NCBI GenBank assembly: GCA_964619545.1
Contig: CAZUED010000003.1
Span: 163-64,162 of the forward strand
Direction: 5' to 3'
Source: an uncultured Muribaculaceae bacterium
GTDB lineage: Bacteria; Pseudomonadota; Alphaproteobacteria; Rs-D84
Length of the DNA stretch: 64,000 nt
The position numbers were made by a program, and so were the translations under genes. The notes beneath the pieces are model-generated. The model saw nothing but the letters and a program-made list of their open reading frames with translations. It did no database searches and was not told the origin of the DNA. This document shows positions 1-48,819 of this stretch, piece by piece. How positions within the stretch are numbered: position 1 is the stretch's first letter; every line of letters begins with the position of its first letter.

Positions 1-124
1 TTCGTTCTGGTGATTATTGAGCACCAGCCACCCTCTGATCCATTCCGAACCAGACAGGGAAACGATGTATCGCCGATGGTACTTTGGCTTAAGCCACGGA
101 AGAGTAGGTCGTCGCCAGAACGAA
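1..124 (+). rRNA. rrf: 5S rRNA (distal gene of an rRNA operon lying upstream of the window)
   Basis: nt 1-12 (ttcgttctggtg) pair with 113-124 (cgccagaacgaa) as helix I; conserved 5S strings ccattccgaac and cgccgatggtac...agagtaggtcg present; intrinsic terminator follows. Confidence 0.85.
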
Positions 125-160
125 ATTCATAAAGACATGTAAAGCCGAGACAATGAAATA

Positions 161-187
161 CCGCCCCATTTTTGGGGCGTTTTTTTA
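161..187 (+). terminator. rho-independent terminator after 5S rRNA
   Basis: cgcccc-attttt-ggggcg hairpin followed by a T-run. Confidence 0.7.
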
Positions 188-474
188 TCCGATGTCATTC
201 CTATCACAATAGTTATAAATTTTAGTTATAATTTTTACATGGTTCAAAATAATCCGGACTTAAATTTTCCAAATTATACGGCACAGAATATGCCGCCAAA
301 AAATCCATGTGAAACCTGTTTGTTTTGGGGAATCACATGTAATCAATTAATATGCTCGAATTTCCAAAAATATAAAGAAGATACGAAAAAATTTGCGCTG
401 AGCAATGAAATTTCTCCCTTTAACAATTTATATTGATGTGATATAATCAGATGAAAGTAGAGAAGGGGTTTTTT

Positions 475-2439
475 ATGAAAAGCCGGTTTTTAGCGTATTT
501 TGTGTTCGCATTTAGCGCTGTTTTTGTATTGCCTGGGGCGGCTGATCCAATTGCTGGATATGGCCAGACTGCGCCTGTTGCAACAACAAGCGCAACACAA
601 TCTCCGCGTGCAACAGGTCAGCGCGGCGGTCGTGCGACCCCCAGCCCCACTGCGGCAGCCAAAGTTGGCGCAACACAATCAGCGTCGCGTAGTGTGTCAT
701 CAAGAAGCGTTGGTGCGCGTGCAACCGCAACATCTGCGCAAAATATAGTTTCGCGTGGCACCAGTTCGCGTACAACAAGCAGTCGCGCGGTACGCGCTCG
801 TACAGCAAGTTCAGCAACAACGGCCAGGGTTTCGCTGACCGGTACCGCAATTCGCGGCAGCAGCACTTCGACCACAACACTTGCTAACAAGCTTTATACC
901 GGGACATATTCTAATATTATTGATCCTACAACCGGTTTAATTTCAGCAGATGCCTACAGCAACTGTCTTGAATCTTATTATGCTTGCATGGATGAAATTT
1001 GTACGGCGCGTAATCCAGGACAACGTCGTTGCGCGTGCGCCGGTCGAGTAAAAACTTTTGCTAATGTAGAAGCGCAATTGCAGACAGCACGTGAAGATTT
1101 ATTAAAAGTTTCGGGACAATTGTCATTATTAATCCTTACCAAGGGCAAGGATGTTACGTCTGCATTTACTTTGACCGAGTCAGAAAAAGTTTTGAATTGC
1201 GTTTCTTGGCGTGATGCCAAAACCGCTGGAAAGACCGATGAATGGTGCGAAAGTCATACCATGCTGTCTGGCACAACAAGTTGCACCAGCTATTCTGGGC
1301 CACCGGCGTTTGTAGCGGAATACTGCTCTAGTAACGATTTTGTTCTGGGTGGATCCGATTGGATGAATGTCTTGAATGGGGCGGATTCTGATATACTTTC
1401 CAGCTTGGAAACCTATGCCAGCACGATAAACCAAGTCAATGTTATTACCACAGATAACACAAACAGCTTGTTCAGTTCATTCATGAATGTCAGCGATATA
1501 GTTGGACAGCTGGACGGCACCGGGAATTTGTTCAGTTCAACAGAAACGGCGCCCGATACTTTGGCCCAGCTGTGGGGGTATAACTTGTTCCAGTACGCCC
1601 ATAACAATGTTTGCAATCGTGTTCTGAATTCTTGCTTTAACGGAATTTATGAAGCATGCGGAAGCAATAACGGAACAACTGGTCCATATAATTATAACAA
1701 TACAATAACTGTTAACAATGATGGATCGGACTTGAATTTTGTTGTTCCAGGATCGTCTTCTTCAACCAGCACGAATACAGCAACTTGCTTTGGTTATACA
1801 AGCAGCAGTGGCGATCCATATTCAACGTTGCGCCGGCCAGTGGCGGATTCGCGCCGCAGCATTTTGCAAAAGTATGCACTGGACGCAAATGCTGATTGCG
1901 ATACGTATGGTGAAGAGTTGAAAAAGCAAGCGACAAATATGGCATATCAAAAGATAGCCGCGACTCAGTACCTGCAGCAAAAGCGTCTTGAATTCGCAAA
2001 TGAAGATGAAACAAATACAACTGCTGAATTAGTTGCTGCCAAAGAGTCTTATCGCAGTTGCGTCAGCGAGGTTTATGATTGCTATGACCAACAGACACGG
2101 ACTAATCCAACCTGGACTGCGGCACGTGTAAAGAACTATTGCTCGCAAAGCGCGGAAGTTCCCAGCTGCTATGAAACGATGGTATGTGATCAAGAAGTTG
2201 GTCGTTTGATTGATGTCGCAGACAGCATAACATGCACAAGTACCCAAGATTGGGCAGCGAACACTTGCCGCAATGTTGTCAGATTGTCAGAAATCTTGAA
2301 TGGCACGGGCGCGGCAGCGGTTTCGACTGGTGCGAACTCGGCAGGTTTGCGCGAGTACTGCTTGCAAAGCACCCCAGGTGTATATGGCGAAGGCAGTATA
2401 CGTGATTTTGGCACCGGCTGGGGTCCAGGAAGTTTATAA
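475..2439 (+). CDS. secreted cysteine-rich protein P1 (signal peptide, R/S/T/A-rich low-complexity region, CxxxYxxCMDxxC...RCxC motif, coiled coil, long Cys-rich region); family not recognised
   Basis: ORF 451-2439; start moved to the ATG at 475 (gaagggg SD upstream; MKSRFLAYFVFAFSAVFVLPGAADP is a classic signal peptide); paralogous to the next gene. Confidence 0.8.
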   Translation: MKSRFLAYFVFAFSAVFVLPGAADPIAGYGQTAPVATTSATQSPRATGQRGGRATPSPTAAAKVGATQSASRSVSSRSVGARATATSAQNIVSRGTSSRTTSSRAVRARTASSATTARVSLTGTAIRGSSTSTTTLANKLYTGTYSNIIDPTTGLISADAYSNCLESYYACMDEICTARNPGQRRCACAGRVKTFANVEAQLQTAREDLLKVSGQLSLLILTKGKDVTSAFTLTESEKVLNCVSWRDAKTAGKTDEWCESHTMLSGTTSCTSYSGPPAFVAEYCSSNDFVLGGSDWMNVLNGADSDILSSLETYASTINQVNVITTDNTNSLFSSFMNVSDIVGQLDGTGNLFSSTETAPDTLAQLWGYNLFQYAHNNVCNRVLNSCFNGIYEACGSNNGTTGPYNYNNTITVNNDGSDLNFVVPGSSSSTSTNTATCFGYTSSSGDPYSTLRRPVADSRRSILQKYALDANADCDTYGEELKKQATNMAYQKIAATQYLQQKRLEFANEDETNTTAELVAAKESYRSCVSEVYDCYDQQTRTNPTWTAARVKNYCSQSAEVPSCYETMVCDQEVGRLIDVADSITCTSTQDWAANTCRNVVRLSEILNGTGAAAVSTGANSAGLREYCLQSTPGVYGEGSIRDFGTGWGPGSL

Positions 2440-2460
2440 AGCACAAGGCGTAGATAATAA

Positions 2461-4704
2461 ATGAATAAAAATTCCAGATTTTGCAAAAAGTTTGGTGCAT
2501 GTTTATCTATGCCTTATGCTGTTTTTTTGATGTTCTGCATGGGTATAGCTGATGCAGCTGAAGTAAGTCGTGCACTTCCCGGAAAACAAGTTGCTATTTC
2601 AACGACATTCCAAAATCAGATACAATCCGAAGATGAAGTACCGGTGATAGAGCCCGGACAAGTTTCTGTACCCATATCGGTTTCACGTACGGCAGCATTG
2701 CCTGCACAAAGAAGTCAAAATGAAATAAGATCACGCACAGCGGCGACAGCTGTTCCACGCGATGCACTGAATGAAGCTGCGCGCCAAGTTGGACGCAGCG
2801 CCAAGGCCGAGGCAGCAAGTATGAATGCAACGGCACCAGTTCGTCGTGCGGGGATTTCTTTACGTCCGACAGCTGCCGAGGTTGGCGGCCGTGCAGCAGT
2901 TGTTACAGCTGGTACAACTACAGCTTCAAGTGTCAGCGCGGCAAGTCGTAGATTAACTTCACGTGCTGCAACTACAGGTCCCGATACAGCTGGGATTGAC
3001 GATACAATAGCTGTGACGGAATCATGCCAAGCGCAATATACCGACTGCATGGATCAGTTCTGCGCTGTCATTGATGCCAACCAAAAAAGATGCAGCTGCA
3101 GTAATCGTCTTTCTTCTTATTCGCGTGTAGAAACATCTGTAAAAGAAGCAAACAATCAGCTGAATGACGTCGCACAACGCATACGCTATGTGGGATTGTC
3201 TGCGGATGAAATTAGTGCGATTATGAGCGCGACCGAGGCTGAGATTGCATTACAAAATACCCGTGATACAACAGAATCACGGAATATGCTGGATGAAATT
3301 GAAAATCTTATTCGTTCGCCGGAAAATGTTGTTGCGCAAAGTTCTTCATCAACGATTGATTTGGACTTGAGTTTTGATGCAGAGGCTGATCCCATGGAGT
3401 TGTTTAATCTTTCCGGATCATCAACAGGGTCATTTTCTAATTTGCGTGGAACGGATTTGCTAAATGCCGCAAAAAAACGTTGCCAATCTGTGCTGACATC
3501 ATGCAAAGCCAAAGGTGCAAACGTCAATCAAATTACAGGTCGGTATGAAATAGAGATAGATAAAGACTGCATAACATATGAAAAAGGTCTGGAAAAGATG
3601 AATCAGACCTTGCGCACAAATGTTCGCAGTGCAACACAAATGTTGCAAAAGGCAAGACTTGCTGTGCTTGAAAATCATAACTCTTACGACGCCAAGGGTT
3701 GTGTTGGTGCTTTGGAACAATGCATGCACGACGAAATGGTTTGCGGAAGCGACTATTCTAAATGCCTTGATCCGACTAAACGCTTTATAGACGAAAGCGG
3801 AAAAGTAGTTTTGGGTCAAAATATTTCCATGATAAGAAACATTATGGCGAATTTTGATAATTCTATAATAGACGAGTCGTTTATAGGTTCAGCATGGGCA
3901 ATGTCGGGAATGTCTGGTTGTGATCAGGCACCAAATAATAATGGCAAATGCATTGTGAAGTATTTGTTGGGAAAAATCGGAATGGGCGAAGATAGCAGCT
4001 CTGGTTTGTGTCGCCCGGTTTTAGACAAGTGTCAAAAACAAACGTATGATGGCCGCGGCAAATATAATCCGAAAAACGCAATAGTCGTGGGCTATATACA
4101 GCGCGCAATGACTAATATTCGTGCTGCCCAGGAAAATATAATTTCAGATTACGCATCGACATGTATGGCGGAAATTGCAACTTGCTATTCCAAGCAGGTT
4201 ACGCAAATCAATGCATGGTCATCAAATGCCAACGTTCAGAATGTGTATTCAGTTCTGAAAGGCGCATGTCGTAATGTTGCACTGACATGCAGCTATGCGG
4301 TTTTCTCGGCCGACCAAACTGTGAATGGTTGCCCAATAACCAGCAATGATATGGCTGGAACCGATGGTGATAGGCAAAGCAAATGTATAGAAAACATTTC
4401 GGATATATTCTATCAATCAATGTTGTGTCCAGATTATTCGACATGGGTCCCGGCACAGACAGGTGCTATCGCAGGCACTATGTATCCTTATTCGCCCGAT
4501 ACACCGATCAGAGTGCATGTTAACGAGCGCTGTGTATGCCAATCAGGATATGGCGTAAATGCGGGTAGTTGTGAACAATGCCCGACCGGATACGCATTCA
4601 ATGCAAATTGCACTTATGCCAGTGCATCCCAAGGTTGTCCGATTATAGGATGCGGTTGCCCAGCGGGTACGACTTGGAATACGACTGCATCTGCGTGCCA
4701 ATAA
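2461..4704 (+). CDS. secreted cysteine-rich protein P2, paralogue of P1, with a C-terminal furin/ephrin-receptor-like Cys-rich tail
   Basis: 747-aa ORF with signal peptide (...FLMFCMGIADA/AEV); shares CQAQYTDCMDQFC...KRCSCSNR with CLESYYACMDEIC...RRCACAGR of P1; exact start uncertain. Confidence 0.8.
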   Translation: MNKNSRFCKKFGACLSMPYAVFLMFCMGIADAAEVSRALPGKQVAISTTFQNQIQSEDEVPVIEPGQVSVPISVSRTAALPAQRSQNEIRSRTAATAVPRDALNEAARQVGRSAKAEAASMNATAPVRRAGISLRPTAAEVGGRAAVVTAGTTTASSVSAASRRLTSRAATTGPDTAGIDDTIAVTESCQAQYTDCMDQFCAVIDANQKRCSCSNRLSSYSRVETSVKEANNQLNDVAQRIRYVGLSADEISAIMSATEAEIALQNTRDTTESRNMLDEIENLIRSPENVVAQSSSSTIDLDLSFDAEADPMELFNLSGSSTGSFSNLRGTDLLNAAKKRCQSVLTSCKAKGANVNQITGRYEIEIDKDCITYEKGLEKMNQTLRTNVRSATQMLQKARLAVLENHNSYDAKGCVGALEQCMHDEMVCGSDYSKCLDPTKRFIDESGKVVLGQNISMIRNIMANFDNSIIDESFIGSAWAMSGMSGCDQAPNNNGKCIVKYLLGKIGMGEDSSSGLCRPVLDKCQKQTYDGRGKYNPKNAIVVGYIQRAMTNIRAAQENIISDYASTCMAEIATCYSKQVTQINAWSSNANVQNVYSVLKGACRNVALTCSYAVFSADQTVNGCPITSNDMAGTDGDRQSKCIENISDIFYQSMLCPDYSTWVPAQTGAIAGTMYPYSPDTPIRVHVNERCVCQSGYGVNAGSCEQCPTGYAFNANCTYASASQGCPIIGCGCPAGTTWNTTASACQ

Positions 4705-4763
4705 AACCCTTGAAAATCGTGTGGTATTTGCTATGCTTTTCCTATTAAAAGGAAGAAAGCATA

Positions 4764-6308
4764 ATGAGTCAAGCATACGCCGTTCTGGCGCGAAAATACC
4801 GCAGTCAAGATTTTGCCAGTCTGATTGGACAGGACGTTCTTGTTAAAACCCTTACTACAGCAATCAATACAGACCGAATCGCGCATGCGTATATTTTTAC
4901 GGGCATTCGTGGAACTGGGAAAACCAGCACCGCTCGCATTCTGGCCAAGGCGCTGAATTGTTTAAGCGCAAATAAAGCAACCGCTGCCCCATGTGGTGTA
5001 TGTGAAAATTGCAAAGCGATTGCTGCCGGTCAGCATATTGATGTTTTGGAAATTGACGCAGCATCGCACACTGGTGTTGATAATATGCGCGACATTTTGG
5101 ATGCAGCCCAGTATCGTCCAACTAATGGCAGATACAAGGTTTACATTATCGACGAAGTGCATATGCTTTCAACCAGTGCATTTAATGCATTATTAAAAAC
5201 TCTGGAAGAGCCGCCCGAGCATGTTATTTTTATTCTGGCGACGACAGAAATACGAAAAGTTCCTGTAACTATTCTTTCCAGATGCCAACGATTTGATCTT
5301 GTACGTGTTTCAGTCGAAACACTTAAGAAACATTTTGCTTGGATTGCCCAGTCGGAAAAAGTGAATTTGACAGATGGTGCAAACGAATTGTTGTCGCGTG
5401 CAGCAGATGGTTCAGTTCGTGATGGTCTGTCTTTATTGGATCAAGCAATTGCGCAAACAGGCGGCAATGTGGATGAGGCTGCAGTGCTGTCCATGTTAAA
5501 ACGCGCGGACCGCGGCGTGGTCGTTGATTTTATGCAGACATTACTGTCGGGCGATGTTGCGGCCGCAATAGACAAGGCGGACTCTTTGTATGCTAATGGC
5601 GCGGATTTATCAATGTTGCTTACTGACATGATGGAATGGACGCACTGGGCGACTCGTATGCACCCCAGCTTGCATGCAGGTGATGCAGCTGCAATTCCAT
5701 ATACGGCTGATCAAAAAGAACAAATAAGAAAAATTAACGAAACGACTAGCCTGAATACTTTGTCGCGCATATGGCAAGTAATGGTTGCCAGTGTACCTGA
5801 AATGCAGACTGCTGGGAATCAAAAGCAATGCTTTGATATGCTGGTTGTTCGTTTAATGCGTGTTGCTGATATGCCGCCCATCAACGAATTAGTAAAGCAA
5901 ACAGCAACGTCTGCACCCCAAGCAAAACAGCAGATACATAAAGTTCCAGCAAAAGACAATGCATTTATAAAAATTTCAACGCCAATTGAACTTTCTGGCG
6001 CCCTTTCTGATGCCAAAGAACCTTTGTTAATGACTCATTGGGCAAATAATGTAGAGGTTGCAGAATTTTCAGATGGGCAAATTAAGTTTTTTGATCGTAA
6101 TGATGATCGTGATTTCCCTACAAAATTGCGTGATTTTTTACGTACCAAAACCGGCAAAGAATGGATTTTGGAAAAGATAGAACCAGAGCAGAAAAATCAG
6201 CCCATGCAAACCCCGACCGAGGCACAGCGCGCAGAACTTGAAGCCGATCCTGTGGTTGCAAACGCGCTGGATTTATTTGCTGGTGCCGAAATTATTTCGG
6301 TAAAATAA
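4764..6308 (+). CDS. dnaX: DNA polymerase III subunit gamma/tau
   Basis: Walker A GIRGTGKTSTARILAKALNC, Zn module CGVCENCKAI, DEVHML, SRCQRF; SD aaggaag upstream. Confidence 0.95.
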   Translation: MSQAYAVLARKYRSQDFASLIGQDVLVKTLTTAINTDRIAHAYIFTGIRGTGKTSTARILAKALNCLSANKATAAPCGVCENCKAIAAGQHIDVLEIDAASHTGVDNMRDILDAAQYRPTNGRYKVYIIDEVHMLSTSAFNALLKTLEEPPEHVIFILATTEIRKVPVTILSRCQRFDLVRVSVETLKKHFAWIAQSEKVNLTDGANELLSRAADGSVRDGLSLLDQAIAQTGGNVDEAAVLSMLKRADRGVVVDFMQTLLSGDVAAAIDKADSLYANGADLSMLLTDMMEWTHWATRMHPSLHAGDAAAIPYTADQKEQIRKINETTSLNTLSRIWQVMVASVPEMQTAGNQKQCFDMLVVRLMRVADMPPINELVKQTATSAPQAKQQIHKVPAKDNAFIKISTPIELSGALSDAKEPLLMTHWANNVEVAEFSDGQIKFFDRNDDRDFPTKLRDFLRTKTGKEWILEKIEPEQKNQPMQTPTEAQRAELEADPVVANALDLFAGAEIISVK

Positions 6309-6318: not shown

Positions 6319-6777
6319 ATGAGAGAGCAATGCGGACGCAGCCTGATTGAAATGCTTGGAGTGCTGGCCATCGCAGGTGTTATGACCGCTGGTGCAATTG
6401 CTATGTATAACATTGTGCGCACCCGACAGATTCGGATGGTGGCGACCCAAGATATGAAAACAATCGCAAATAATACAAAGCTGTTGTATGCCGCGCGCCG
6501 TGATTATACCGGCATATCCGCAGATTATTTGGTTAAGGCTGGCGCAATGCGCAATGAAAAATCTCCTTTGGCTGGCGCTCAGTTTTCTATTTCTGCAAGT
6601 CCAGGCCCCAAGGAATTCGCAATGGTTTTTGCAGAATTAAATTTTAATGATTGCTCTTGGCTTGCGACGCAGAATTTTGATTGGGCGGACAGAATTAGTG
6701 TGAATGGGTATTTTGAGTCCGCATCGACTTATTGTCGTCAGATGGATAAAAATGAAGTTGCGGTTTGGGTGAAATAA
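6319..6777 (+). CDS. type IV pilin / pseudopilin-like protein
   Basis: N-terminus MREQCG/RSLIEMLGVLAIAGVMTAGAIAMY has a short leader, Gly(-1), Glu(+5) and a hydrophobic alpha1-N; C-terminal Cys pair (DCSW...TYC) fits a pilin D-region; strong SD aaggagag. Confidence 0.7.
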   Translation: MREQCGRSLIEMLGVLAIAGVMTAGAIAMYNIVRTRQIRMVATQDMKTIANNTKLLYAARRDYTGISADYLVKAGAMRNEKSPLAGAQFSISASPGPKEFAMVFAELNFNDCSWLATQNFDWADRISVNGYFESASTYCRQMDKNEVAVWVK

Positions 6778-8316: not shown

Positions 8317-8403
8317 ATATAAAAATGTTTTGTAAAAAACTTTGATTTTGTTGATTTTGCCTTTCTACTTTTGCCTTTTGTTTTTTTGTGTTATAATTCA
8401 CCT

Positions 8404-9147
8404 ATGAAAAAGTTTTTTGCTTCATTGTTTGTTATTAGTTTTTCATTGCTGTTCATGGCGCCTGTGCGTGCATCAGATGCCCCGGATTTCAAGATTTACG
8501 AAGACGTTTCCATAAATAATCAGCCAAAATCCATGCCAGAAATAGAGGAATTATTTCTTAATCCCCGTGCCCAGACAGAAAATCTTTGGGCTGCCGGAAA
8601 AAATTCAATGTTAGAAATTTCTTATACTGGTTGCCCATTTCATACAATTCGTGAATGCCTGATTTGGAAGCGTAAACCAGTAATAATGGAAACAATCCCA
8701 TTGCCAACGCGGCATATTAAAAAAACTGATGATTATCAAACCGCATTGGTAAAAAGGTACGAGGCTCTGATGCAGGCAGCCAGATCTTGTTGCACTGCCG
8801 GCATGGAGAACAAGTTGATAAATTCTGGCGCATCCGCTGGTTTGATTTATAAATTTATGGTTGATGATGCAAACTTTTACGGATTTGGGGATAGATGCTT
8901 GATGATAACAGATGAAGAACTGCAAGAAAACTATTCTGGGACTGCAACCGCAAGGGCGGTGATGGGTGTTCGTGATACATGCCTGTGTCAGCGGCGGGAT
9001 TATTTTGATGCACTACTGGCGCCATTTGACGATTTTCCAGACGAAGAGTATAATTATACTTATCAAGATGGATTGAAGCGCGAGGTAAATGTTTCAATCA
9101 GCAATGATGTACGTGCAGTCAAAGAAATTTTGACACGCTGCCTATAA
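8404..9147 (+). CDS. secreted Cys-containing hypothetical protein
   Basis: ORF 8371-9147; ATG at 8404 gives MKKFFASLFVISFSLLFMAPVRA/SDAP signal peptide; several Cys pairs (SCCTAG, CLCQRR); no family recognised. Confidence 0.65.
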   Translation: MKKFFASLFVISFSLLFMAPVRASDAPDFKIYEDVSINNQPKSMPEIEELFLNPRAQTENLWAAGKNSMLEISYTGCPFHTIRECLIWKRKPVIMETIPLPTRHIKKTDDYQTALVKRYEALMQAARSCCTAGMENKLINSGASAGLIYKFMVDDANFYGFGDRCLMITDEELQENYSGTATARAVMGVRDTCLCQRRDYFDALLAPFDDFPDEEYNYTYQDGLKREVNVSISNDVRAVKEILTRCL

Positions 9148-10265: not shown

Positions 10266-10690
10266 TGGTAGATACAAAGGGTGTAGAAGCTGTAATTCCA
10301 CATCGCGGCAATATGAGATTGGTGGATGAAATTCGCGAATTTAATGAAATCAGTGGTGTTGGTATAAAACATGTCAGGGATGATGAATTTTGGTGTGCCG
10401 GACATTTTCCCGGAAATCCGATAATGCCTGGTGTTTTACAGGTCGAGGCCTTGGCGCAAACTGCATGCTTTATTGTGTTCAAGCAAATGGGTGCAACAGG
10501 TAAGGACACTTTGGGCTATTTTACCACTATGGAAAAAATCAGATTTTCGCACATGGTAAAACCTGGCGATACGCTTGAATTGCATGTAGAAATTTTGGCA
10601 AAAAAATTAAACATGTATAAATTTCATGGAATTGCAATGGTTGGCGGGAAAAAAGTTTCCGAGGCTACATTTTCCGCAATCATGAATTAA
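10262..10690 (+). CDS. fabZ: 3-hydroxyacyl-ACP dehydratase
   Basis: IPHRGNMRLVD and HFPGNPIMPGVLQVEALAQ signature. Confidence 0.95.
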   Translation: MMVDTKGVEAVIPHRGNMRLVDEIREFNEISGVGIKHVRDDEFWCAGHFPGNPIMPGVLQVEALAQTACFIVFKQMGATGKDTLGYFTTMEKIRFSHMVKPGDTLELHVEILAKKLNMYKFHGIAMVGGKKVSEATFSAIMN

Positions 10691-11072
10691 AATCGCTGTA
10701 CGTGCCTTTATCGGCAGTTAAATACTTGTATAAAGCATCGGGCGTCCATATAAATGGCGCCCGAATTTTTAATACGTGTTTTGCGAAAGAAACACAGGTT
10801 ATGTTAGAGCATAAGTTATAGGGCATAACGCATAGATATTTTTTACCTTGTGCCTTATGCTCTAAAAACACCCATCCATTTTGTTCCAGGATTTTTAGGT
10901 CGCGGGTTTGCAGCAGTATAAAGTTTATTTTCCCTGAACCGACTTGTATCATAGTGTATCTATGTCTTATGCCTTTAGCCTTATGCTCTAAAACGATTGC
11001 GCAGTGTCGAAATTTTCGGCAAAAAATGCGTGGCATTATTTTCCTGGTATTATTTGTAAATCCGATAAGCAT
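10680..11072 (-). CDS. hypothetical protein with an internal duplicated (A/W)xxLEHKAxG segment
   Basis: 130-aa ORF convergent with fabZ (11-nt overlap); no family recognised; coding status uncertain. Confidence 0.35.
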   Translation of the reverse strand: MLIGFTNNTRKIMPRIFCRKFRHCAIVLEHKAKGIRHRYTMIQVGSGKINFILLQTRDLKILEQNGWVFLEHKAQGKKYLCVMPYNLCSNITCVSFAKHVLKIRAPFIWTPDALYKYLTADKGTYSDFNS

Positions 11073-11205
11073 GAAAATCTCCGATTTTTATTTAATTTTC
11101 AAAGTGCAATTGTGGTGTCGGCTTCACCGACAACCTATAAATAATTATTTTACCTGTGAGCAACGCGAACACATTAATTGCACATTGCACTTTGCTAATT
11201 GCTCA

Positions 11206-11601
11206 TTAGTTTTCCAGCCATCCTTTGATTTTTGCAGCTTGCGCGATAGTTTGCATTGCATCATTCCACAGGGCAGCTTTGGCATTTTCTGACCATTCAT
11301 GCTGATGTGGAGCGCGCCGCAAGTCTCCAAATTCTTTCAAGACTTCCAGTTGTTTGGGCGTTAGCTTGCCGGCCAGGTAAAGCCGAGTGATAAGAGTTTC
11401 AACATCAATAGCTTCACAAGGATATGGATTTCGTGCCACTGGTCTTCCGATACGCATACGCGCAATGCTGGCAGATGAAAGCGCATCCTTTTGTCGGCAA
11501 GTTAAAAACCAAAACCACATTTGATCGGCGTCTTGAAATTTTCTTTCTGGTGCGTCAAAAGCCGTAGAAGGTATATTTTTTTGTTTTAAGTTGGCGTTCA
11601 T
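11206..11601 (-). CDS. hypothetical protein, possible DNA-binding (LTPKQLEVLKEFG helix)
   Basis: ORF 11206-11616; second ATG at 11601 has a ggagag SD; no confident family assignment. Confidence 0.5.
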   Translation of the reverse strand: MNANLKQKNIPSTAFDAPERKFQDADQMWFWFLTCRQKDALSSASIARMRIGRPVARNPYPCEAIDVETLITRLYLAGKLTPKQLEVLKEFGDLRRAPHQHEWSENAKAALWNDAMQTIAQAAKIKGWLEN

Positions 11602-11739
11602 TTTTTCTCTCTCCATTTTACCCCGTATAATTACTGGGTATGCATTCCTACACTAAAAATAATTGAATTATATCAAATGATACAACTACAAATAGATACT
11701 GCGGTTAGGTTTCTGACATTTTTTGTTTTTTGATAAATT

Positions 11740-11790: not shown

Positions 11791-13938
11791 TTATCTATCT
11801 TGACCGATTTTGGTAGATGTTCCGGATTTCAGGTTGTCATTGGCTATACGAAGTTGTACTTGGTATGCGTTTATACAATCTGTCATACTGGAATTAGTCA
11901 TAGAATCGCCACATTTTTCAAATTGAGATTCAGATAATTTCAATGTTGTTGACATTCCTTTCAGCAAGTCAGAATCAAATTTAAGCTGCTTTCTGGCATC
12001 TGTTTTATTTGATGCGGAACGTATTACGCTCAAGTTGTTATTCAAGCAAGAAATCATATCTGATGTGCTGTAAACCTCATTACAATCACGAGCACCATTT
12101 AATCTTACATTACCTTTAGAAGATTTGCTTGCACTAGTAGAAGAATCATCAGTAGTATCGCCGCCAGCGGCCTGTAATTTTGATACCAGAATGGATTTCT
12201 CCATCTGAGTCTTTAACCGCTTCATAGTAACGTCCAAAAAGTCATACTGACGTTTCATCTGTTGAGTAATAATTGTCGTTTTCAATGCGATTGTATCCGC
12301 CATCATTTGTTTGTCAGCGGCCGAGGTTGGATTTTTTGTACTTCCAATGTTATAAGCATGGGTGCTGCACAAAGCGATGGCTGAATTGATATAATCATTT
12401 CCGCTGTCTTCTTTGCACCCGTTATCAGCTGTGCCAATGGAAAGAATTGCGTCCAGATTGTTGTTTTTGACACACAGATTGCGATCTGGCAAACGTCTTA
12501 GCTGTGCCAAATTACTTATAACAGCTAACTGATCAGAATTTGTTGCACACCATTTTATTGCGTCGGCTGCAGATTCTTCGCCGCGAATTACACTTGGTGC
12601 GTCCTGGGCAATTATTCTGCGCAAAGTTTCTATATCAATCGTCGATTGCTTTTTGCGATTTTTAAATAACACGGAATTATCAATTGCGTCAGATGCACAT
12701 GCAACGCGAATCCCGCCAGAACTGCCCGCATCCATATCCAGCCAGTTTTGTTGAATGTCCTCTTGATTATTTAACATCTTTAACAAAGTGCAATGGGGCT
12801 GTTGAGATTTTACTCGGCGGTTCCCCTGAGCATCATTTTCGTATGCTATAGGCCAGTATCCGCGGCCGGTTTTTGTATCATAATCGCAAGTTATGCTTGT
12901 CTTATCATCAATTTTTTCAGTTTGATTTTGAGAACATGTCTCGCACATATATTGCCCCCAGACATTGCAAGAGCCATTCAGCATCATGTAAATATCTGTT
13001 ATATCAACGCCCAAAGATTGCGCTAAAACCAACGCATCATACAACTCGTCCAAAACTGCATCATACGGATCAAAGAATTTATTTGCCTTATCCTTGAACG
13101 CTTTGACTCGCCGAGGACCCTGGCAATTATTTCCATTAGAATCACAACGCGCATAATCAAAAACATTTTGCATTGTGTTTTTTAAATCTTTCATCGCAAC
13201 ATCAGAATTTTCAAGCTGGGTCAGTATTTGACCACCAATTTGTTCGCGTGCCAAAACATCTGCCGATACACCCGCATTGACTGCATTAGTAATTGTTTTA
13301 TCGGGTGCTGATGCGCTTGCTGCTTGGGCCGCGGCCTGTGCTTGCTGGGCCGCCAGTTGTTTTTGCTCTTCCAATGCTTGCTGAACAGCCGCGGCGGATT
13401 GAGCAGATTGTTCTTGCATCTGTTGCTGCATCTGCATCATCTGCGCTTGCATTTGTTCTATCTGAGTGTTTGATTGCGCCGCTGCTGCATTTGCAGCCTG
13501 CGTTGTTGCAGCATTTTGCGCCTCGGTTGCTTTTGCAATAGCGGCACTTACCATCTGTGCCGCCAATGTTTGGATTAAATCGTCACCATATTGCTCGCAC
13601 GAAGGATTACTTTTCACGCAACCTTTCACAATCGGAAGCGCCAATTCCATGGTTGTGCAGCCCGCGCACTTTGGCTGGGCGCAACGCAAAATAAGTGAAT
13701 TACAATTTCCAAAATCTGCAACCGGCCTTTGTTGCCCCAGTGGATTAGGGTTTATCGCGGCATTCCACTGATTGTTGTTCAATGCGCCGGCACTGCCGGT
13801 AAATACAGTTCTGTTACCTGAAATTCCGCCAGAATTTGCAAAAGAAGGCCCTGGTCCGCCGATAGGACTGTCGCCATAGGCAGTCCCCAGTGCAAAGCAG
13901 GCGGTACAAACAGATAAAAATCTGATTAAAATCTTCAT
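11791..13938 (-). CDS. secreted cysteine-rich coiled-coil protein P3 (Q/A-rich helix, many Cys pairs)
   Basis: ORF 11791-13998; ATG at 13938 gives MKILIRFLSVCTACFALGTAYG/DSP signal peptide with an agagaga SD; Q/A-rich stretch AQNAATTQAANAAAAQSNTQIEQMQAQMMQMQQQMQEQ; co-directional with and 67 nt after virB10. Confidence 0.8.
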   Translation of the reverse strand: MKILIRFLSVCTACFALGTAYGDSPIGGPGPSFANSGGISGNRTVFTGSAGALNNNQWNAAINPNPLGQQRPVADFGNCNSLILRCAQPKCAGCTTMELALPIVKGCVKSNPSCEQYGDDLIQTLAAQMVSAAIAKATEAQNAATTQAANAAAAQSNTQIEQMQAQMMQMQQQMQEQSAQSAAAVQQALEEQKQLAAQQAQAAAQAASASAPDKTITNAVNAGVSADVLAREQIGGQILTQLENSDVAMKDLKNTMQNVFDYARCDSNGNNCQGPRRVKAFKDKANKFFDPYDAVLDELYDALVLAQSLGVDITDIYMMLNGSCNVWGQYMCETCSQNQTEKIDDKTSITCDYDTKTGRGYWPIAYENDAQGNRRVKSQQPHCTLLKMLNNQEDIQQNWLDMDAGSSGGIRVACASDAIDNSVLFKNRKKQSTIDIETLRRIIAQDAPSVIRGEESAADAIKWCATNSDQLAVISNLAQLRRLPDRNLCVKNNNLDAILSIGTADNGCKEDSGNDYINSAIALCSTHAYNIGSTKNPTSAADKQMMADTIALKTTIITQQMKRQYDFLDVTMKRLKTQMEKSILVSKLQAAGGDTTDDSSTSASKSSKGNVRLNGARDCNEVYSTSDMISCLNNNLSVIRSASNKTDARKQLKFDSDLLKGMSTTLKLSESQFEKCGDSMTNSSMTDCINAYQVQLRIANDNLKSGTSTKIGQDR

Positions 13939-14005: not shown

Positions 14006-16300
14006 CTAAATTATTGGGGGAAAGCAATCACCGCCAGCTGCTGGACAGCAGTTGAATCCTTGGCTACCCATGTCTGTATAAACCTCGCCCGTGCAACAGC
14101 CGTTTAAGTCTGGCGATGTACCATCTTCGCAGGTCAGTGCCGTCGTGGTGGTGGTTGCGGGTGGTGTTTCTTTGGCAAATGGATTTTTTATTGTACCGTC
14201 CGCATTGTATTGCAGGCCCAAAACTTGCTCGTTATATTCTTTTGTTCCCTTAGTTAATTGCTGGCCATTGGTTCCGACAATACCGGTTTGCTGCTGGTTA
14301 TTCCAAATAGCCTGCTGTTGGGCATTATTTATCGCTTGATACTGAATTGCTTTACAATATGCAACAACGGTACGATAGTCATAGCCAGCCTCGGAAATAG
14401 TTTGTGCTGTTACACCCGCACTCAGCTGTCCATTAGTGCCGCAGTATTTCTGTATATCAAATCCGCGAACTTGTCCAACCCATGATGCATCATCATAATT
14501 TGGTATGGCTTCGGACGCTTTATGAGAAACATATTGCGAAGGAGTCAAATTGCAATTTTCAAGCCCATTCACCTTGTCGCAGAAGTTCACAATTAAATCC
14601 TTTGGCGAATAAACCGTTATGCGCGTACCAGCGGCAATAGAAAATGGAGGAACCGTGTTGTCCAGCATATCAACCATTAATTTTTGCGCAACTCTGTTCC
14701 ATGTTGAAATAATTTCATTTTTTGCCAGCTCGGACGAGCGAACTTGACCACTTTGTGTAACCGTATTGTTATCCAGATCAATTTGATTTACGAACTTGTC
14801 TGAAATTGGCGCAATCAAATTAACAGCGGCAGGCACAACTGCCGTTATCATCGGCATTATGAATTGCTCCATATAATCTGTGCTGCCGTGACCTGGAACG
14901 CCAACGCGACCTTGGCTGTCGCCAGCAAAGGGCTCGTCCCCGGCAAAGCTGAATTCAACTCCGTCCGGTCTAACAAAGCGATACCATTTGATTTGCATAC
15001 GACCGATGGCTTTATACGGACCCGGCATTTCACCAGTCAAATAACCCAACATCAATGTTCCGGTCGGAATTATTATAGTGCGTCCGTTATCAGAATAGAC
15101 ATGTCTATCAACTGTTGCCTGAACTGGCAACATGGATTGACGCTCTATCTTTGCATCTGCACGTATTTCATTTACGATTGTCGCAGGAATAGGCTTGTAC
15201 TGGCGCAGAACAAAAGTGCGGTCATAGGGCTCGGTCGATATAAATGCATCGCCCGCAGATGAAGGTACCAGGTTACTTTCTGGTTTATATGCAAATGCTG
15301 GATTTATCTCTGACAAACGTTTTGCACCACCCGCAGCTCTGGGTAATTCTGCCGCTGCTGCATTTACTTGTCTTGCTCGATTTTGTACGCGTGCGTTCGC
15401 CGGATTGGACAATACAGGAACATTCGCGCTTGATGCAATAAATCCGATTCGATCAAAGTCAGAGCCTATTTTTCTGCTGGGATTTTTAAGATCGGTAATA
15501 AATCCGGTATCCAAATTATATTCACCCAGTGGGCTGGTGCAGTCCAAGTCAGAAAAAGGATGAAAAAGATAATGTCCACCTTGGGGACGTATCCATCCGA
15601 TTTGCTTTCCATATGCGTCATAGCCGCCGAATGCAAATTCATAGCAGCGCTCGGTATTTAATGCTGCTGTAGTTACTGGCGCAGGCAAATTTTCTGTTGC
15701 AAATTTTGGCGCAAGGGTTTCGACCGCCTCGGCCACAGGATTAATTTCAGGGGCAGTCAAAACAGGTTCTGGTTCTGGCAATTGCACTGGTTTTTGTGGT
15801 TCTACTTTTTTTGTAGATAAAGCAACAGGAATTTCAGCAGTTTGTGCCATTTTGGCCTCGGCACTGGCGGGGTAATACTCAATAAGTACTTTAATGCCGG
15901 TTGGTTCCAAGTCTGCAGCAGGCGTCCAAGTTAATTCTGCACTGCAAGGAATGCCAAGTGTAATTTCGCCCATATTTGTACAGGTGGTATCTATGCTTAA
16001 TCCATCAATTTTTTGGGATAGTTTTACGCTGGGAATCATTGCGACTGCATTCGAAGAAATTTTAATAGTCTGTGTCTGTTTTTCGCCAACTGGAATGTTT
16101 TGCCATGCGATCTCAGATGGATCCATGGTCAGCTCCAGAACTGGTTTTGATTCGGACTTTGGTTTATCCTTGGAATCGCGACCCATCAGAATAACCAGCA
16201 AAACAACGACTACCAAAAAAGCAGCGAACATCACGATCCACAGCACATGCCGTGGCATGGACTTTTTTACATCGCTGATAGTGGTTGTTATCATCGCCAA
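14006..16300 (-). CDS. virB10: VirB10/TrbI-family T4SS core protein with a ~190-aa Cys-rich C-terminal extension
   Basis: N-terminal TM (VLWIVMFAAFLVVVVLLVILM), Pro-rich linker (VQLPEPEPVLTAPEINP) and TrbI-type domain (LPVQATVDRHVYSDNGRTIIIPTGTLMLGY...GDSQGRVGVPGH...PPFSIAAGTRITVYSPKDL); TTG start with aggag SD. Confidence 0.85.
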   Translation of the reverse strand: MAMITTTISDVKKSMPRHVLWIVMFAAFLVVVVLLVILMGRDSKDKPKSESKPVLELTMDPSEIAWQNIPVGEKQTQTIKISSNAVAMIPSVKLSQKIDGLSIDTTCTNMGEITLGIPCSAELTWTPAADLEPTGIKVLIEYYPASAEAKMAQTAEIPVALSTKKVEPQKPVQLPEPEPVLTAPEINPVAEAVETLAPKFATENLPAPVTTAALNTERCYEFAFGGYDAYGKQIGWIRPQGGHYLFHPFSDLDCTSPLGEYNLDTGFITDLKNPSRKIGSDFDRIGFIASSANVPVLSNPANARVQNRARQVNAAAAELPRAAGGAKRLSEINPAFAYKPESNLVPSSAGDAFISTEPYDRTFVLRQYKPIPATIVNEIRADAKIERQSMLPVQATVDRHVYSDNGRTIIIPTGTLMLGYLTGEMPGPYKAIGRMQIKWYRFVRPDGVEFSFAGDEPFAGDSQGRVGVPGHGSTDYMEQFIMPMITAVVPAAVNLIAPISDKFVNQIDLDNNTVTQSGQVRSSELAKNEIISTWNRVAQKLMVDMLDNTVPPFSIAAGTRITVYSPKDLIVNFCDKVNGLENCNLTPSQYVSHKASEAIPNYDDASWVGQVRGFDIQKYCGTNGQLSAGVTAQTISEAGYDYRTVVAYCKAIQYQAINNAQQQAIWNNQQQTGIVGTNGQQLTKGTKEYNEQVLGLQYNADGTIKNPFAKETPPATTTTTALTCEDGTSPDLNGCCTGEVYTDMGSQGFNCCPAAGGDCFPPII

Positions 16301-16321
16301 CGCAGACTCCTGAGCCTTTTA

Positions 16322-17797: not shown

Positions 17798-17876
17798 TTC
17801 ACATCCTTCCTAATTTTTTTCTCAAGCGAATTCAGCTGTGACATTTGCCACTTGCCGTTTGCTATTTAAGTTTATG

Positions 17877-36237: not shown

Positions 36238-36744
36238 ATGAGATTTGGAAAAGTTCTTATTGGATTGGGCTTTGCGGTTATTACTCAGGGCGCAATCGCC
36301 GGACAAAATATTGAAATTTATTATTCGCCATCATGCCCCCATTGTCACCATGCAATGGAGTTTATTGATAAAACTTTGAGCGTGCAGTACAAAGATTTGC
36401 AGGTCAACAAGGTAAATGTTGTCGAACAAAAAAATCGTGATGCATTCATGAATGTTTTGAAAAAATGTGAATACAAATCTGGTGGTGTTCCAGTGATGGT
36501 CGTAAATGGTAAATGCTTCCAAGGTTATGCCGAATTCATGAATACAGAAATAATGCAGGCAATGGGCCCGGCCGATGTTGCTAGTGATAAAGCTGTCGCA
36601 ACAGAAAAATCTGAATCTGTTGCCCAGCTTCCGCCCGAACAAATACAGCCGGCAGACAAGGGAACATCAACAATGCTTTATGTTTTGCTGGGTTTGTTGG
36701 TAGCAGCGCTGGGCGTAGTATTGTTCGTTAAGAAGAAAAAATAA
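36238..36744 (+). CDS. exported glutaredoxin/thioredoxin-fold protein (CPHC) with a C-terminal membrane anchor
   Basis: signal peptide, YYSPSCPHCHHAMEFI active-site-like motif, GVPVMVVNGKCFQGY (cis-Pro region), C-terminal TM LYVLLGLLVAALGVVLFV plus KKKK. Confidence 0.7.
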   Translation: MRFGKVLIGLGFAVITQGAIAGQNIEIYYSPSCPHCHHAMEFIDKTLSVQYKDLQVNKVNVVEQKNRDAFMNVLKKCEYKSGGVPVMVVNGKCFQGYAEFMNTEIMQAMGPADVASDKAVATEKSESVAQLPPEQIQPADKGTSTMLYVLLGLLVAALGVVLFVKKKK

Positions 36745-42958: not shown

Positions 42959-43057
42959 GAACTTTCCTTACTCCGGCAATTTTATATTGTCAAATGGCAA
43001 AAAACAAGTTCTTTTAATCCTTGAAAAGCAAACTATAAATTGCTAGATTGCACAGCG

Positions 43058-45364: not shown

Positions 45365-45423
45365 GCTTGACTATCCGCGTTAAAATTCTTTATAATTTTT
45401 GATGAAAAGATAAAGGTGGGAAG

Positions 45424-45570: not shown

Positions 45571-45582
45571 AGGCGCGAACTG

Positions 45583-48764: not shown

Positions 48765-48819
48765 AATTCATCCTTTGTAGTACAGGTCAATTATACTTTT
48801 AAATAATGAGTTTTCAATA

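What the first reader, a model, noticed from the sequence alone, without database searches (positions are those of the whole stretch)
475..4704. Tandem pair of giant secreted Cys-rich paralogues sharing a CxxxYxxCMDxxC...(K/R)RCxC core
Seen: both proteins have a signal peptide followed by ~150-190 aa of R/S/T/A-rich low complexity (for example SRSVSSRSVGARATATSAQNIVSRGTSSRTTSSRAVRARTASS, and RSRTAATAVPRD...SRRLTSRAATTG). Next comes an obviously homologous block: P1 CLESYYACMDEICTARNPGQRRCACAGRVKTF and P2 CQAQYTDCMDQFCAVIDANQKRCSCSNRLSSY. This is followed by a heptad-like helix and several hundred residues dotted with Cys pairs. They lie directly after the rRNA operon terminator and are 21 nt apart. 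I cannot place the family. Inference: a lineage-specific, disulfide-rich envelope or surface protein family, possibly linked to the VirB-like core genes and to P3 (11791-13938). The resemblance to P3 is in composition and architecture, not in clear sequence identity.
Basis: partly seen in the sequence, partly recalled or inferred. Interest (0 to 1): 0.7.

Follow-up and report, generated by a model that had tools for sequence, protein, structure and literature searches.

The report
Conserved cysteine-stapled helical envelope protein pair
Two adjacent genes encode ancient sister proteins of an undescribed exported family whose helices are probably pinned by disulfide bonds; the family is conserved like housekeeping genes across Rs-D84, an uncultured order of tiny-genome gut bacteria, and is most likely a structural envelope or surface component rather than part of the nearby secretion system.

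Summary
P1 (475-2439, 654 aa) and P2 (2461-4704, 747 aa) are real, co-oriented genes 21 nt apart. They sit behind their own strong promoter, downstream of the 5S rRNA terminator.

- **Homology:** they are homologous over the whole ~470-aa core, not only the Cys block (hhalign 98.7 %, E 2.6e-16).
- **Distribution:** each has more than 1000 homologues at about 50 % identity. Every hit that carries a name comes from an Alphaproteobacteria or Rickettsiales MAG. The lineage is order Rs-D84 / Ca. Enterousia, with genomes under 1 Mb.
- **Selection:** both are under strong purifying selection (core dN/dS 0.06).
- **Family size:** the family has at least three paralogue classes and 666 clusters at 50 % identity.
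- **Architecture:** signal peptide, then a basic tail with invariant Arg, then an acidic all-alpha core with invariant Cys (C-x6-C on helices). P2 adds a C-terminal TNFR/ephrin-receptor-like Cys-rich module of variable length.

P3 is not detectably homologous, and its position next to virB10 is not conserved in the two relatives examined.

Best reading (about 0.4): a disulfide-stapled, oligomeric envelope or surface stalk that displays a variable head. The family is new; the kind of protein is known.

The parts
6..120 (+). 5S rRNA, the end of the rRNA operon that lies upstream of the pair
   Evidence: Rfam RF00001, 66.5 bits
162..189 (+). Intrinsic terminator of the rRNA operon: a 7-bp GC-rich stem followed by a T-run
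   Evidence: Terminator scan and direct reading of the sequence
420..447 (+). Sigma-70-type promoter-like site for P1-P2: TTAACA, 16 nt, TATAAT, with a TG before the second hexamer
   Evidence: 11 of 12 matches, the best site in 1-5000. It is a consensus match only.
460..468 (+). Ribosome-binding site GAGAAGGGG, 6 nt before ATG 475
   Evidence: Direct reading of the sequence
475..2439 (+). P1 coding sequence, 654 aa, the P1-type paralogue. An alternative upstream ATG at 451 is unlikely because it starts only 4 nt after the -10 hexamer.
   Evidence: ORF list; 1206 homologues; dN/dS 0.084 against L001
475..543 (+). P1 signal peptide, aa 1-23, with predicted cleavage at GAA|DP. The mature N-terminus Asp-Pro-(Ile/Val) is conserved across the family.
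   Evidence: Hydropathy; family N-termini
544..924 (+). P1 basic disordered tail, aa 24-150: pI 12, net charge +14, with invariant Arg at 72, 77, 94, 104, 109 and 118
   Evidence: pLDDT below 50; dN/dS 0.19
964..1038 (+). P1 Cys block C-x6-C-x4-C-x9-C-x-C, aa 164-188
   Evidence: All five Cys are invariant in 57 orthologues; the block aligns to the P2 block at E 4.8e-14
925..2436 (+). P1 acidic all-alpha core, aa 151-654: pI 4.5, 21 invariant Cys, including a 91-residue helix at 453-543
   Evidence: AlphaFold2 model; dN/dS 0.059
2461..4704 (+). P2 coding sequence, 747 aa, the P2-type paralogue. It lies 21 nt after P1 with no terminator between them.
   Evidence: dN/dS 0.095
2461..2556 (+). P2 signal peptide, about aa 1-32 (IADA|AE). 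It is followed by the conserved N-terminal motif SR[AV][IL]P[GS].
2557..3000 (+). P2 basic disordered tail, aa 33-180, pI 11.2, with invariant or near-invariant positions including R92, R128, R129 and R135-P136
   Evidence: dN/dS 0.25
3025..3099 (+). P2 Cys block, aa 189-213
   Evidence: Invariant Cys
3001..4425 (+). P2 acidic all-alpha core, aa 181-655. Core length is constant across the family (453-482 aa). C-x6-C pairs lie on predicted helices.
   Evidence: homologous to P1 158-608
4426..4701 (+). P2 C-terminal Cys-rich beta module, aa 656-747. Across the family it varies from 48 to 325 aa and from 4 to 35 Cys. It is TNFR/ephrin-receptor-like in 9 of 57 homologues.
   Evidence: Flg_new repeats lie C-terminal to the core in giant members
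11791..13938 (-). P3, a separate conserved Cys-rich exported family. It shares the design, not detectable homology. It lies downstream of virB8-virB9-virB10 in this window only.
36238..36744 (+). Exported thioredoxin-fold protein with a CPHC motif (DsbA-like): a candidate oxidase for forming the disulfides
   Evidence: Translation; Pfam Glutaredoxin and Thioredoxin_3 hits

Best explanation
P1 and P2 are Sec-exported structural proteins of the cell envelope or surface of an Rs-D84 (Enterousia-related) alphaproteobacterium.

**Proposed mechanism, step by step**
1. After signal-peptide cleavage, a periplasmic DsbA-type oxidase forms intrachain disulfides. These staple long helices through paired C-x6-C motifs into a rigid, acidic helical stalk (inferred).
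2. The two ancient paralogues are co-transcribed from a strong promoter. They probably assemble with each other into an elongated hetero-oligomer (inferred). P1 has a 91-residue helix that is unlikely to be stable alone.
3. The basic, disordered N-terminal tails carry invariant Arg motifs. They act as the proximal anchor, binding an anionic or conserved envelope partner (inferred).
4. The Cys-rich C-terminal module of P2 is the distal, exchangeable head that contacts the outside, for example a partner cell or host surface (inferred).

**Shown here:** export signals, paralogy across the whole core, invariant Cys, strong purifying selection, the constant-core/variable-head architecture, and the absence of any known homologue.

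**Inferred only:** the disulfides themselves, oligomerisation, anchoring, surface exposure and the adhesive role.
For: **Export and oxidation**
- Each protein has one N-terminal hydrophobic segment with AxA-type cleavage and no other transmembrane-like segment.
- A DsbA-like exported CPHC protein is encoded in the window. A DsbA gene lies near the third paralogue in a relative.

**Cysteine pattern**
- 21 of 22 Cys in P1 and 22 Cys in P2 are invariant across 57 orthologues each.
- C-x6-C is the commonest adjacent-Cys spacing. P2 has 9 such pairs against 1.8 expected, and none of 20,000 random placements reached 9.
- In P2 these pairs lie on predicted helices.

**Fold**
- Both cores are predicted all-alpha with long helices. 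Local pLDDT is mostly 75-93 in P2 from about residue 330 to the end.

**Selection and expression context**
- Core dN/dS is 0.06, like dnaX (0.04) and lpxD (0.08).
- The pair has a strong promoter. In Enterousia the genes flank rplU-rpmA.
- P1 lies within 6 kb of P2 in 40 of 64 informative species loci.

**Envelope neighbourhood**
- The neighbours are an OmpA-family lipoprotein, skp, lpxD, fabZ and pagL.

**Variable head**
- The P2 core is constant at 453-482 aa, while the C-terminal tail spans 48-325 aa.
- Family members reach 2338 aa and 121 Cys.
- C-terminal modules hit Ephrin_rec_like, TNFR_ELAPOR1_6th and NCD3G, and the Listeria-Bacteroides surface repeat.

**Tail and core**
- The tail is strongly basic and the core acidic, with invariant Arg.

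**Lifestyle**
- Rs-D84 bacteria are proposed to depend on partner cells and to carry many uncharacterised envelope proteins (PMC12306168).
Against: - No route across the outer membrane has been identified, and nothing here shows where the proteins sit.
- Very low dN/dS is unusual for an exposed adhesin. The window's own P2 C-terminal module is also constrained (0.09) and does not itself reach any Pfam threshold.
- The disulfide pattern is inferred from conservation and spacing. It was not read from model coordinates.
- Model confidence is moderate: mean pLDDT 67 and 62, pTM 0.47 and 0.42.
- No oligomer model was run.
- In 23 of 64 informative loci, P1 is not within 6 kb of P2.
Confidence: 0.4

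Rival explanations
1. The proteins are a purely periplasmic scaffold. P1 and P2 (and perhaps P3) would form a disulfide-cross-linked helical lattice or tether between the peptidoglycan and the outer membrane. This would stiffen the envelope of a reduced-genome symbiont, as the chlamydial cysteine-rich envelope complex does, with no surface exposure.
For: - A Sec signal is the only export signal present.
- dN/dS is at housekeeping level, including in the tails and the P2 C-terminal module.
- The gene neighbourhood is outer-membrane biogenesis: an OmpA-family lipoprotein, skp, lpxD and pagL.
- Several other exported proteins in the window are also Cys-rich: Cys258 at 3.5 % and P3 at 3.4 %, plus the VirB10 C-terminus.
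- A basic tail could bind peptidoglycan or lipid A phosphates.
Against: - The C-terminal modules vary in length and are exchanged between species.
- Those modules are of extracellular-receptor or surface-repeat types: Ephrin_rec_like, TNFR-like and Listeria-Bacteroides repeats.
- Family members reach 2338 aa. This is hard to explain for a periplasmic lattice.
- The Brucella-type N-terminal Ala-Asp motif for linkage to peptidoglycan is not matched, because mature P1 is predicted to start Asp-Pro.
Confidence: 0.28
2. The proteins depend on or belong to the type IV secretion system. They would be exported to the periplasm by Sec, oxidised there, and then taken to the surface by the VirB-like machine in two steps, as pertussis toxin is by Ptl. 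Alternatively they would form its extracellular adhesin or pilus-tip part.
For: - virB8, virB9 and virB10 lie 9 kb away, with the architecturally similar P3 directly downstream of virB10.
- VirB10 carries a Cys-rich C-terminal extension.
- A second VirB8-like gene is in the window.
- From general knowledge: pertussis toxin is a Sec-exported, disulfide-bonded substrate of a type IV system.
Against: - P1 and P2 are not next to virB genes in any locus examined.
- P3 is not next to virB genes in Enterousia or in the FWE50 MAG.
- There is no similarity to TraN, VirB5, VirB2 or any conjugation family in Pfam or NCBIfam.
- Plasmids give no tblastn hit.
- P3 is not homologous to P1 or P2.
Confidence: 0.1
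3. The proteins are a secreted toxin or effector pair that acts on neighbouring cells, such as a colicin-like helical pore-former or a membrane-fusion device.
For: - The C-terminal modules vary.
Against: - No immunity gene was recognised, and the mature proteins have no hydrophobic hairpin.
- The genes are found in 338 species genomes with housekeeping-like constraint, next to ribosomal genes. That does not fit an accessory toxin.
Confidence: 0.05

Closest known systems
Chlamydial cysteine-rich envelope proteins OmcA/OmcB (the disulfide-cross-linked outer membrane complex)
   Same: Both are Sec-exported, Cys-rich envelope proteins of host-dependent bacteria with small genomes, where disulfides are thought to give mechanical stability. 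This comparison rests on general knowledge.
   Different: There is no sequence or predicted-fold similarity, and no Pfam family is hit. P1 and P2 are all-alpha, with C-x6-C pairs on helices in P2. Cross-linking between chains is not shown here.
Twin CX9C (CHCH) and twin CX3C proteins of the mitochondrial intermembrane space
   Same: The design principle is the same: helix-loop-helix hairpins stapled by pairs of CxnC motifs in an oxidising compartment. Here the spacing is C-x6-C, one heptad apart, and it is the commonest Cys spacing in P1, P2 and P3.
   Different: Those are small eukaryotic proteins oxidised by Mia40. P1 and P2 are bacterial multi-helix proteins of 650-750 aa with tails and heads, and there is no homology. 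Which Cys pairs with which was not determined.
Elongated, disulfide-containing helical surface proteins of parasites (Trypanosoma haptoglobin-haemoglobin receptor and VSG type, Plasmodium RH type)
F-type TraN, the Cys-rich mating-pair stabilisation protein
   Same: Both are exported proteins of about 600 aa with about 22 conserved Cys, in a genome that has type IV secretion genes. The TraN description rests on general knowledge.
   Different: No TraN or other conjugation family is hit in Pfam or NCBIfam. Plasmids give no tblastn match. The genes sit in chromosomal housekeeping contexts.
Ephrin_rec_like (PF07699) and TNFR-like Cys-rich repeats
   Same: The C-terminal module of P2-family members hits PF07699 in 9 of 57 (best E 6e-11). 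It also hits TNFR_ELAPOR1_6th in 4 and NCD3G in 3.
   Different: Only the C-terminal module is involved. The window's own P2 does not reach the E <= 0.01 limit of that scan. The conserved core has no match.

Membership tests
Any curated protein family (Pfam-A, NCBIfam, PHROGs, PADLOC) | A profile-HMM match at or above the curated threshold | tested here: not met
   P1 and P2 give no family in Pfam. NCBIfam, PHROGs and PADLOC give only sub-threshold noise.
Any protein with a solved structure | Significant similarity in sequence or fold to a PDB chain | tested here: not met
F-type TraN and other conjugative mating-pair proteins | A match to the TraN or another conjugation-family profile, and occurrence on conjugative elements | tested here: not met
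   No Pfam or NCBIfam hit. tblastn against 72,556 plasmids finds nothing at E <= 1.
Type IV secretion system component or dedicated substrate | Conserved genomic linkage with virB genes | tested here: not met
   P1 and P2 flank rplU-rpmA or sit next to dnaX. The third paralogue lies among housekeeping genes. P3 is next to virB10 only in this window. Genome-wide co-occurrence was not testable.
Alphaproteobacterial envelope proteins linked to peptidoglycan through their N-terminus (Brucella/Agrobacterium type) | A conserved Ala-Asp motif at the mature N-terminus (PMC10787603) | tested here: not met
   The P1 family has an invariant A|D-P-(I/V). The -3/-1 rule places cleavage after the Ala, so mature P1 starts Asp-Pro. 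P2 has no such motif. The actual cleavage site has not been measured.
Ephrin_rec_like / TNFR-like Cys-rich repeat (C-terminal module only) | A PF07699 profile match | tested here: inconclusive
   9 of 57 family members match, with best E 6e-11. The window's P2 does not match at E <= 0.01.
P1/P2 family itself (uncharacterised, Rs-D84) | Signal peptide, then a basic Arg-motif tail, then the C-x6-C-x4-C-x9-C-x-C block, then a helical core with invariant Cys | tested here: met
   Both proteins match each other's family HMM and align profile to profile over 395 columns. The Cys are invariant.
P1/P2 family: does P3 belong? | Detectable homology to the P1 or P2 profile | tested here: not met
   BLASTP gives E above 1. 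hmmsearch gives no hit. hhalign gives 10 % and 2 %, and below 1 % for the block alone. Only the C-x6-C-x4-C opening and the overall architecture are shared.

The most novel reading that the evidence does not exclude
P1, P2, the third paralogue class and the convergently built P3 together form a previously unseen bacterial surface apparatus. It would be a coat or attachment fibre of disulfide-stapled helical stalks, anchored by Arg-motif tails, carrying swappable eukaryote-like Cys-rich heads. It would reach the surface in two steps (Sec, then the VirB-like machine or a pilin-type system). The sub-1-Mb Rs-D84 bacteria would use it to attach to and exploit partner cells in animal guts.
Probability: 0.12. 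Interest if true: 0.8.

Novelty: new variant of a known kind. Interest (0 to 1): 0.5.

Why it matters
Rs-D84 / Ca. Enterousia bacteria are widespread in human, livestock and termite guts. Their genomes are under 1 Mb and lack most biosynthetic pathways. They are thought to live off other cells, but no interaction machinery is known for them (PMC12306168).

P1 and P2 belong to a multi-paralogue family that is constrained like housekeeping genes. It was found in 338 species genomes and has no homologue of known function or structure. Such proteins are prime candidates for the envelope or attachment structure that defines this lifestyle.

The family also shows a clear design that could be tested: repeated C-x6-C staples on long helices in an anaerobic gut bacterium.

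It gives concrete targets for antibodies, metaproteomics, cryo-ET and heterologous expression, and it deserves a family definition in the protein databases.

Tried and rejected
1. **Curated libraries.** Pfam, NCBIfam, PHROGs and PADLOC gave nothing for P1, P2 or P3.
2. **PDB sequences.** Profile searches found nothing.
4. **Plasmids.** tblastn found nothing, which rejects a conjugative-element origin.
5. **P3 as a distant paralogue.** Tested by BLASTP, hmmsearch, full-length hhalign and block-only hhalign. All were negative. A shared G[VL]SAD motif after the helix reached only 10 % probability.
6. **Further paralogues in the window.** The family HMMs hit only P1 and P2.
7. **Brucella-type Ala-Asp peptidoglycan anchor.** The motif is offset by one residue, because cleavage is predicted after the Ala.
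8. **Pseudogene or non-functional ORFs.** Rejected by dN/dS of 0.06-0.25.
9. **Start codon at 451.** Rejected because it starts 4 nt after the -10 hexamer.
10. **Literature.** Searches for Enterousia, Rs-D84 and Cx6C found no description of these proteins.
11. **Source names.** Cluster look-ups gave only 'hypothetical protein', plus one evident misannotation as a methyl-accepting chemotaxis protein.

Full report
**1. What is in the sequence**

The window opens with a 5S rRNA at 6-120. A strong intrinsic terminator follows: a 7-bp GC-rich stem at 162-179 with a T-run. About 240 nt further on lies the best sigma-70-like site in the first 5 kb. It reads TTAACA-16 nt-TATAAT at 420-447, matches 11 of 12 positions and has a TG before the second hexamer. 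Next come GAGAAGGGG at 460-468 and ATG 475.

P1 therefore runs 475-2439 (654 aa). The upstream ATG at 451 starts only 4 nt after the -10 hexamer, so it is unlikely to be used. P2 runs 2461-4704 (747 aa). It starts 21 nt after the P1 stop, and no terminator lies between them.

**2. Protein anatomy**

Each protein has one N-terminal hydrophobic segment with an AxA-type cleavage site: GAA|DP in P1 and IADA|AE in P2. Neither has any other transmembrane-like segment.

A tail of 125-150 residues follows. AlphaFold2 predicts it to be disordered (pLDDT below 50), and it is strongly basic. The P1 tail has pI 12.0, net charge +14 and only one acidic residue. The P2 tail has pI 11.2.

The tails are not plain low complexity:
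- R72, R77, R94, R104, R109 and R118 of P1 are invariant in 57 orthologues. R92 and R135 of P2 are invariant, and R128, R129 and P136 are nearly so.
- The mature N-terminus of P1 (Asp-Pro-Ile/Val) is conserved across its family. So is an SR[AV][IL]P[GS] motif 5-10 residues into mature P2.
- Tail dN/dS is 0.19-0.25.

Next comes the block C-x6-C-x4-C-x9-C-x-C, at P1 164-188 and P2 189-213. Every Cys in it is invariant, and a helix follows it. The rest is an acidic core (pI 4.5-5.0) that is predicted all-alpha. It includes a 91-residue helix in P1 (453-543), and helices of 50 and 45 residues in P2.

P1 has 22 Cys, of which 21 are invariant. P2 has 32 Cys in the mature protein; 22 are invariant and six more are conserved in at least 93 % of orthologues.

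The commonest spacing between adjacent Cys is C-x6-C, which is one heptad. It accounts for 26 % of adjacent pairs in the P2 family, 15 % in P1 and 14 % in P3. P2 has 9 such pairs against 1.8 expected, and none of 20,000 random placements reached 9. In the P2 model these pairs lie on helices.

P2 ends in a small Cys-rich beta module (656-747), predicted with pLDDT of about 80-92.

**3. P1 and P2 are ancient paralogues across the whole core**

- BLASTP gives E 3e-12 for the tail, block and helix region, and E 1e-4 for a second segment.
- Each family HMM finds the other protein, at E 4e-9 and 3e-14 among the window's ORFs.
- Profile-profile alignment gives 98.7 % probability and E 2.6e-16 over 395 columns, aligning P2 183-650 with P1 158-608. 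Several C-x6-C pairs align with each other.
- The block region alone gives E 4.8e-14.

**4. Who has these proteins**

P2 returns 1023 homologues and P1 returns 1206, both capped counts. Beyond the closest relatives they are typically 48-56 % identical over most of the length. All are unnamed or 'hypothetical protein' from MAGs labelled Alphaproteobacteria or Rickettsiales bacterium.

A scan of one genome per GTDB species found relatives in 338 genomes. Those carrying a genus name are Candidatus Enterousia. Complete chromosomes are 0.72 and 0.96 Mb. This is the order Rs-D84: gut bacteria with genomes under 1 Mb that lack most biosynthesis and are proposed to be obligate symbionts or parasites of other cells (PMC12306168).

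An exhaustive HMM search of 1.84 billion representative proteins with a mixed P1+P2 profile found 666 clusters at 50 % identity with E <= 1e-3. Of these, 477 had E <= 1e-10 and 222 had E <= 1e-30.

The best 150 fall into three classes:
- P1-type proteins.
- P2-type orthologues.
- A divergent P2-like class, with members up to 2338 aa and 121 Cys.

One member of the third class, FWE50_00830, is 32 % identical to P2 over the full length. It comes from the same MAG that also carries a P1, a P2 and a P3 orthologue. The family therefore has at least three paralogue classes in some genomes.

Only the best 150 hits were visible, so members outside Rs-D84 cannot be excluded. Every named hit is an Alphaproteobacteria, Rickettsiales or Proteobacteria MAG protein.

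**5. Selection**

Against the closest relative (L001, dS about 0.65), dN/dS is 0.084 for P1 and 0.095 for P2, and the cores are at 0.059 and 0.060. This is the range of the neighbouring housekeeping genes: dnaX 0.038, skp 0.075, lpxD 0.081.

**6. Gene context**

In the window's closest relatives (L001, L003-L005) the order matches the window: P1-P2-dnaX-prepilin-like-OmpA lipoprotein-skp-Cys258-lpxD. L006 to L008 keep most of this order.

In Enterousia the usual order is pagL-P1-rplU-rpmA-P2. Of 64 species loci with at least 4.5 kb of upstream sequence, 40 have P1 within 6 kb of P2. About 30 of these have the ribosomal genes in between, and 8 are directly tandem.

The third paralogue lies between a tRNA synthetase gene and pgk, with a DsbA gene nearby.

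The association of P1 with P2 is therefore old. The contexts are highly expressed or outer-membrane biogenesis genes. None of the loci examined places P1 or P2 beside virB genes.

**7. P3 and the VirB genes**

The window has virB8 (17877-18530), virB9/CagX (16322-17797) and virB10/TrbI (14006-16300) on the minus strand. P3 lies directly downstream.

P3 also has more than 1200 homologues in the same lineage, but it is not detectably related to P1 or P2. BLASTP gives E above 1 and hmmsearch gives no hit. hhalign gives 10 % and 2 %, and below 1 % for the block alone.

P3 shares the build: signal peptide, disordered tail, a block that opens C-x6-C-x4-C, then a long helix. C-x6-C pairs are also enriched in it, with 3 observed against 0.75 expected (P = 0.03).

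Its position beside virB10 is not conserved. In Enterousia its neighbours are an LRR protein and unknown genes. In the FWE50 MAG it lies between skp and a 247-aa gene, six genes after P2. The suggested T4SS link therefore rests on a local rearrangement.

**8. Comparison with what is known**

- Pfam, NCBIfam, PHROGs and PADLOC give no family for P1, P2 or P3.
- Profile searches of PDB sequences give nothing.
- 72,556 plasmids give nothing.
- The AFDB library could not be searched.

The only recognisable pieces are C-terminal. Nine of 57 P2-family members hit Ephrin_rec_like (best E 6e-11), four hit TNFR_ELAPOR1_6th and three hit NCD3G. Two giant members carry Listeria-Bacteroides surface repeats after the core.

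Across the P2 family the core length is constant at 453-482 aa. The C-terminal module varies from 48 to 325 aa and from 4 to 35 Cys, and it differs even between fairly close relatives.

**9. How it most likely works**

*Shown:* export signals; paralogy across the core; invariant Cys with heptad spacing, on predicted helices in P2; a basic tail with conserved Arg motifs and an acidic core; a constant core with a variable Cys-rich head; housekeeping-like constraint; co-transcription signals; and an exported DsbA-like CPHC protein in the same window (36238-36744).

*Inferred:* after Sec export, the Cys are oxidised into intrachain staples that lock helical hairpins. The principle resembles twin-CX9C or twin-CX3C proteins, but on a far larger scale. 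P1 and P2 then assemble into an elongated oligomer, because a 91-residue helix is unlikely to be stable alone. The basic tails hold the assembly to a conserved envelope partner. The P2 C-terminal module faces outward as an exchangeable binding head. I put this at about 0.4.

The main rival is a purely periplasmic disulfide-linked scaffold, analogous to the chlamydial cysteine-rich envelope complex. It fits the low dN/dS and the lack of any identified route across the outer membrane. It does not explain the variable, extracellular-type heads or the giant members. I put it at about 0.28.

A two-step, T4SS-dependent export, as for pertussis toxin with Ptl, would supply the missing route. It has no support from conserved synteny, so I put it at about 0.1. 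A toxin or fusogen reading rests only on non-significant helical matches, at about 0.05.

I also tested a Brucella-type N-terminal Ala-Asp peptidoglycan anchor (PMC10787603). The motif is offset, because predicted cleavage leaves Asp-Pro at the N-terminus.

**10. Verdict**

The 'envelope or surface family' reading is supported as far as sequence analysis can go. The link to VirB and P3 is not.

The family is undescribed: it has no name, no domain model and no structural relative. It is large, old and strongly constrained in a little-known but widespread gut lineage.

The kind of thing it is, an exported disulfide-rich structural or surface protein, is known. I therefore class it as a new variant of a known kind and score interest at 0.5. 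The upside would come if it proves to be the partner-attachment apparatus of these reduced-genome bacteria.

Noticed in passing
window 36238-36744 (+): An exported thioredoxin-fold protein with a signal peptide, a CPHC active-site motif (the same tetrapeptide as E. coli DsbA) and a C-terminal transmembrane anchor. It lies next to a CvpA-family gene (36807-37562). It is a candidate periplasmic disulfide oxidase for the many Cys-rich exported proteins.
   Followed up: partly
window 14006-18530 (-): A virB8-virB9(CagX)-virB10(TrbI) cluster. In VirB10 the TrbI domain covers only residues 365-569 of 764. It has a long N-terminal extension and a Cys-rich C-terminal extension (...CEDGTSPDLNGCCTGE...NCCPAAGGDCFPP). 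VirB9 has a weak, just sub-threshold SPOR-like C-terminal end. No virB4, virB11 or virD4 was recognised among the larger ORFs annotated.
   Followed up: partly
window 43040-46275 (+): BamA (five POTRA domains plus Omp85) is followed directly by a second, weak, sub-threshold VirB8-like ORF (45583-46275, Pfam E 5e-4). Two ORFs with no family follow it (46284-46934 and 46945-47805).
   Followed up: no
window ~48800-58000: A phage-like block on the minus strand: a T7-type terminase RNaseH-like domain (48820-49656), DnaB helicase (49727-51268), a double-HTH regulator (51372-52388) and a Phage_capsid_2 protein (57189-58004). It may be a prophage or a gene-transfer-agent-like remnant in a genome under 1 Mb.
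   Followed up: no
window 8371-9147 (+): Another exported Cys-rich protein with no family (258 aa, 9 Cys) lies between skp and lpxD. It is conserved at 55-88 % identity in L001 and L003-L005.
   Followed up: partly
window 6319-6777 (+): A prepilin-like ORF of 152 aa with a weak, sub-threshold N-terminal methylation-motif match. It is conserved in synteny right after dnaX in the closest relatives. It hints at a pilus or type II-like system that could be an export route.
   Followed up: no
loci L001, L002, L004, L018, L023, L040: Several GenBank MAGs that carry this alphaproteobacterial locus are titled 'uncultured Muribaculaceae bacterium' or 'Bacteroides fragilis'. One P3 homologue is labelled Lachnospiraceae, and one family member is annotated 'methyl-accepting chemotaxis protein'. 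These look like taxonomic or functional mislabels in public records.
   Followed up: no
L082 2897-4366 and 20435-21262: In a related MAG, the contig carrying the third paralogue also encodes a Pom-family porin (PF17251) and a DsbA-family protein.
   Followed up: no
window 10680-11616 (-): Two small ORFs with no family (130 aa and 136 aa) lie between fabZ and P3. This is roughly where gene order differs from the FWE50 MAG, in which P3 follows skp.
   Followed up: no
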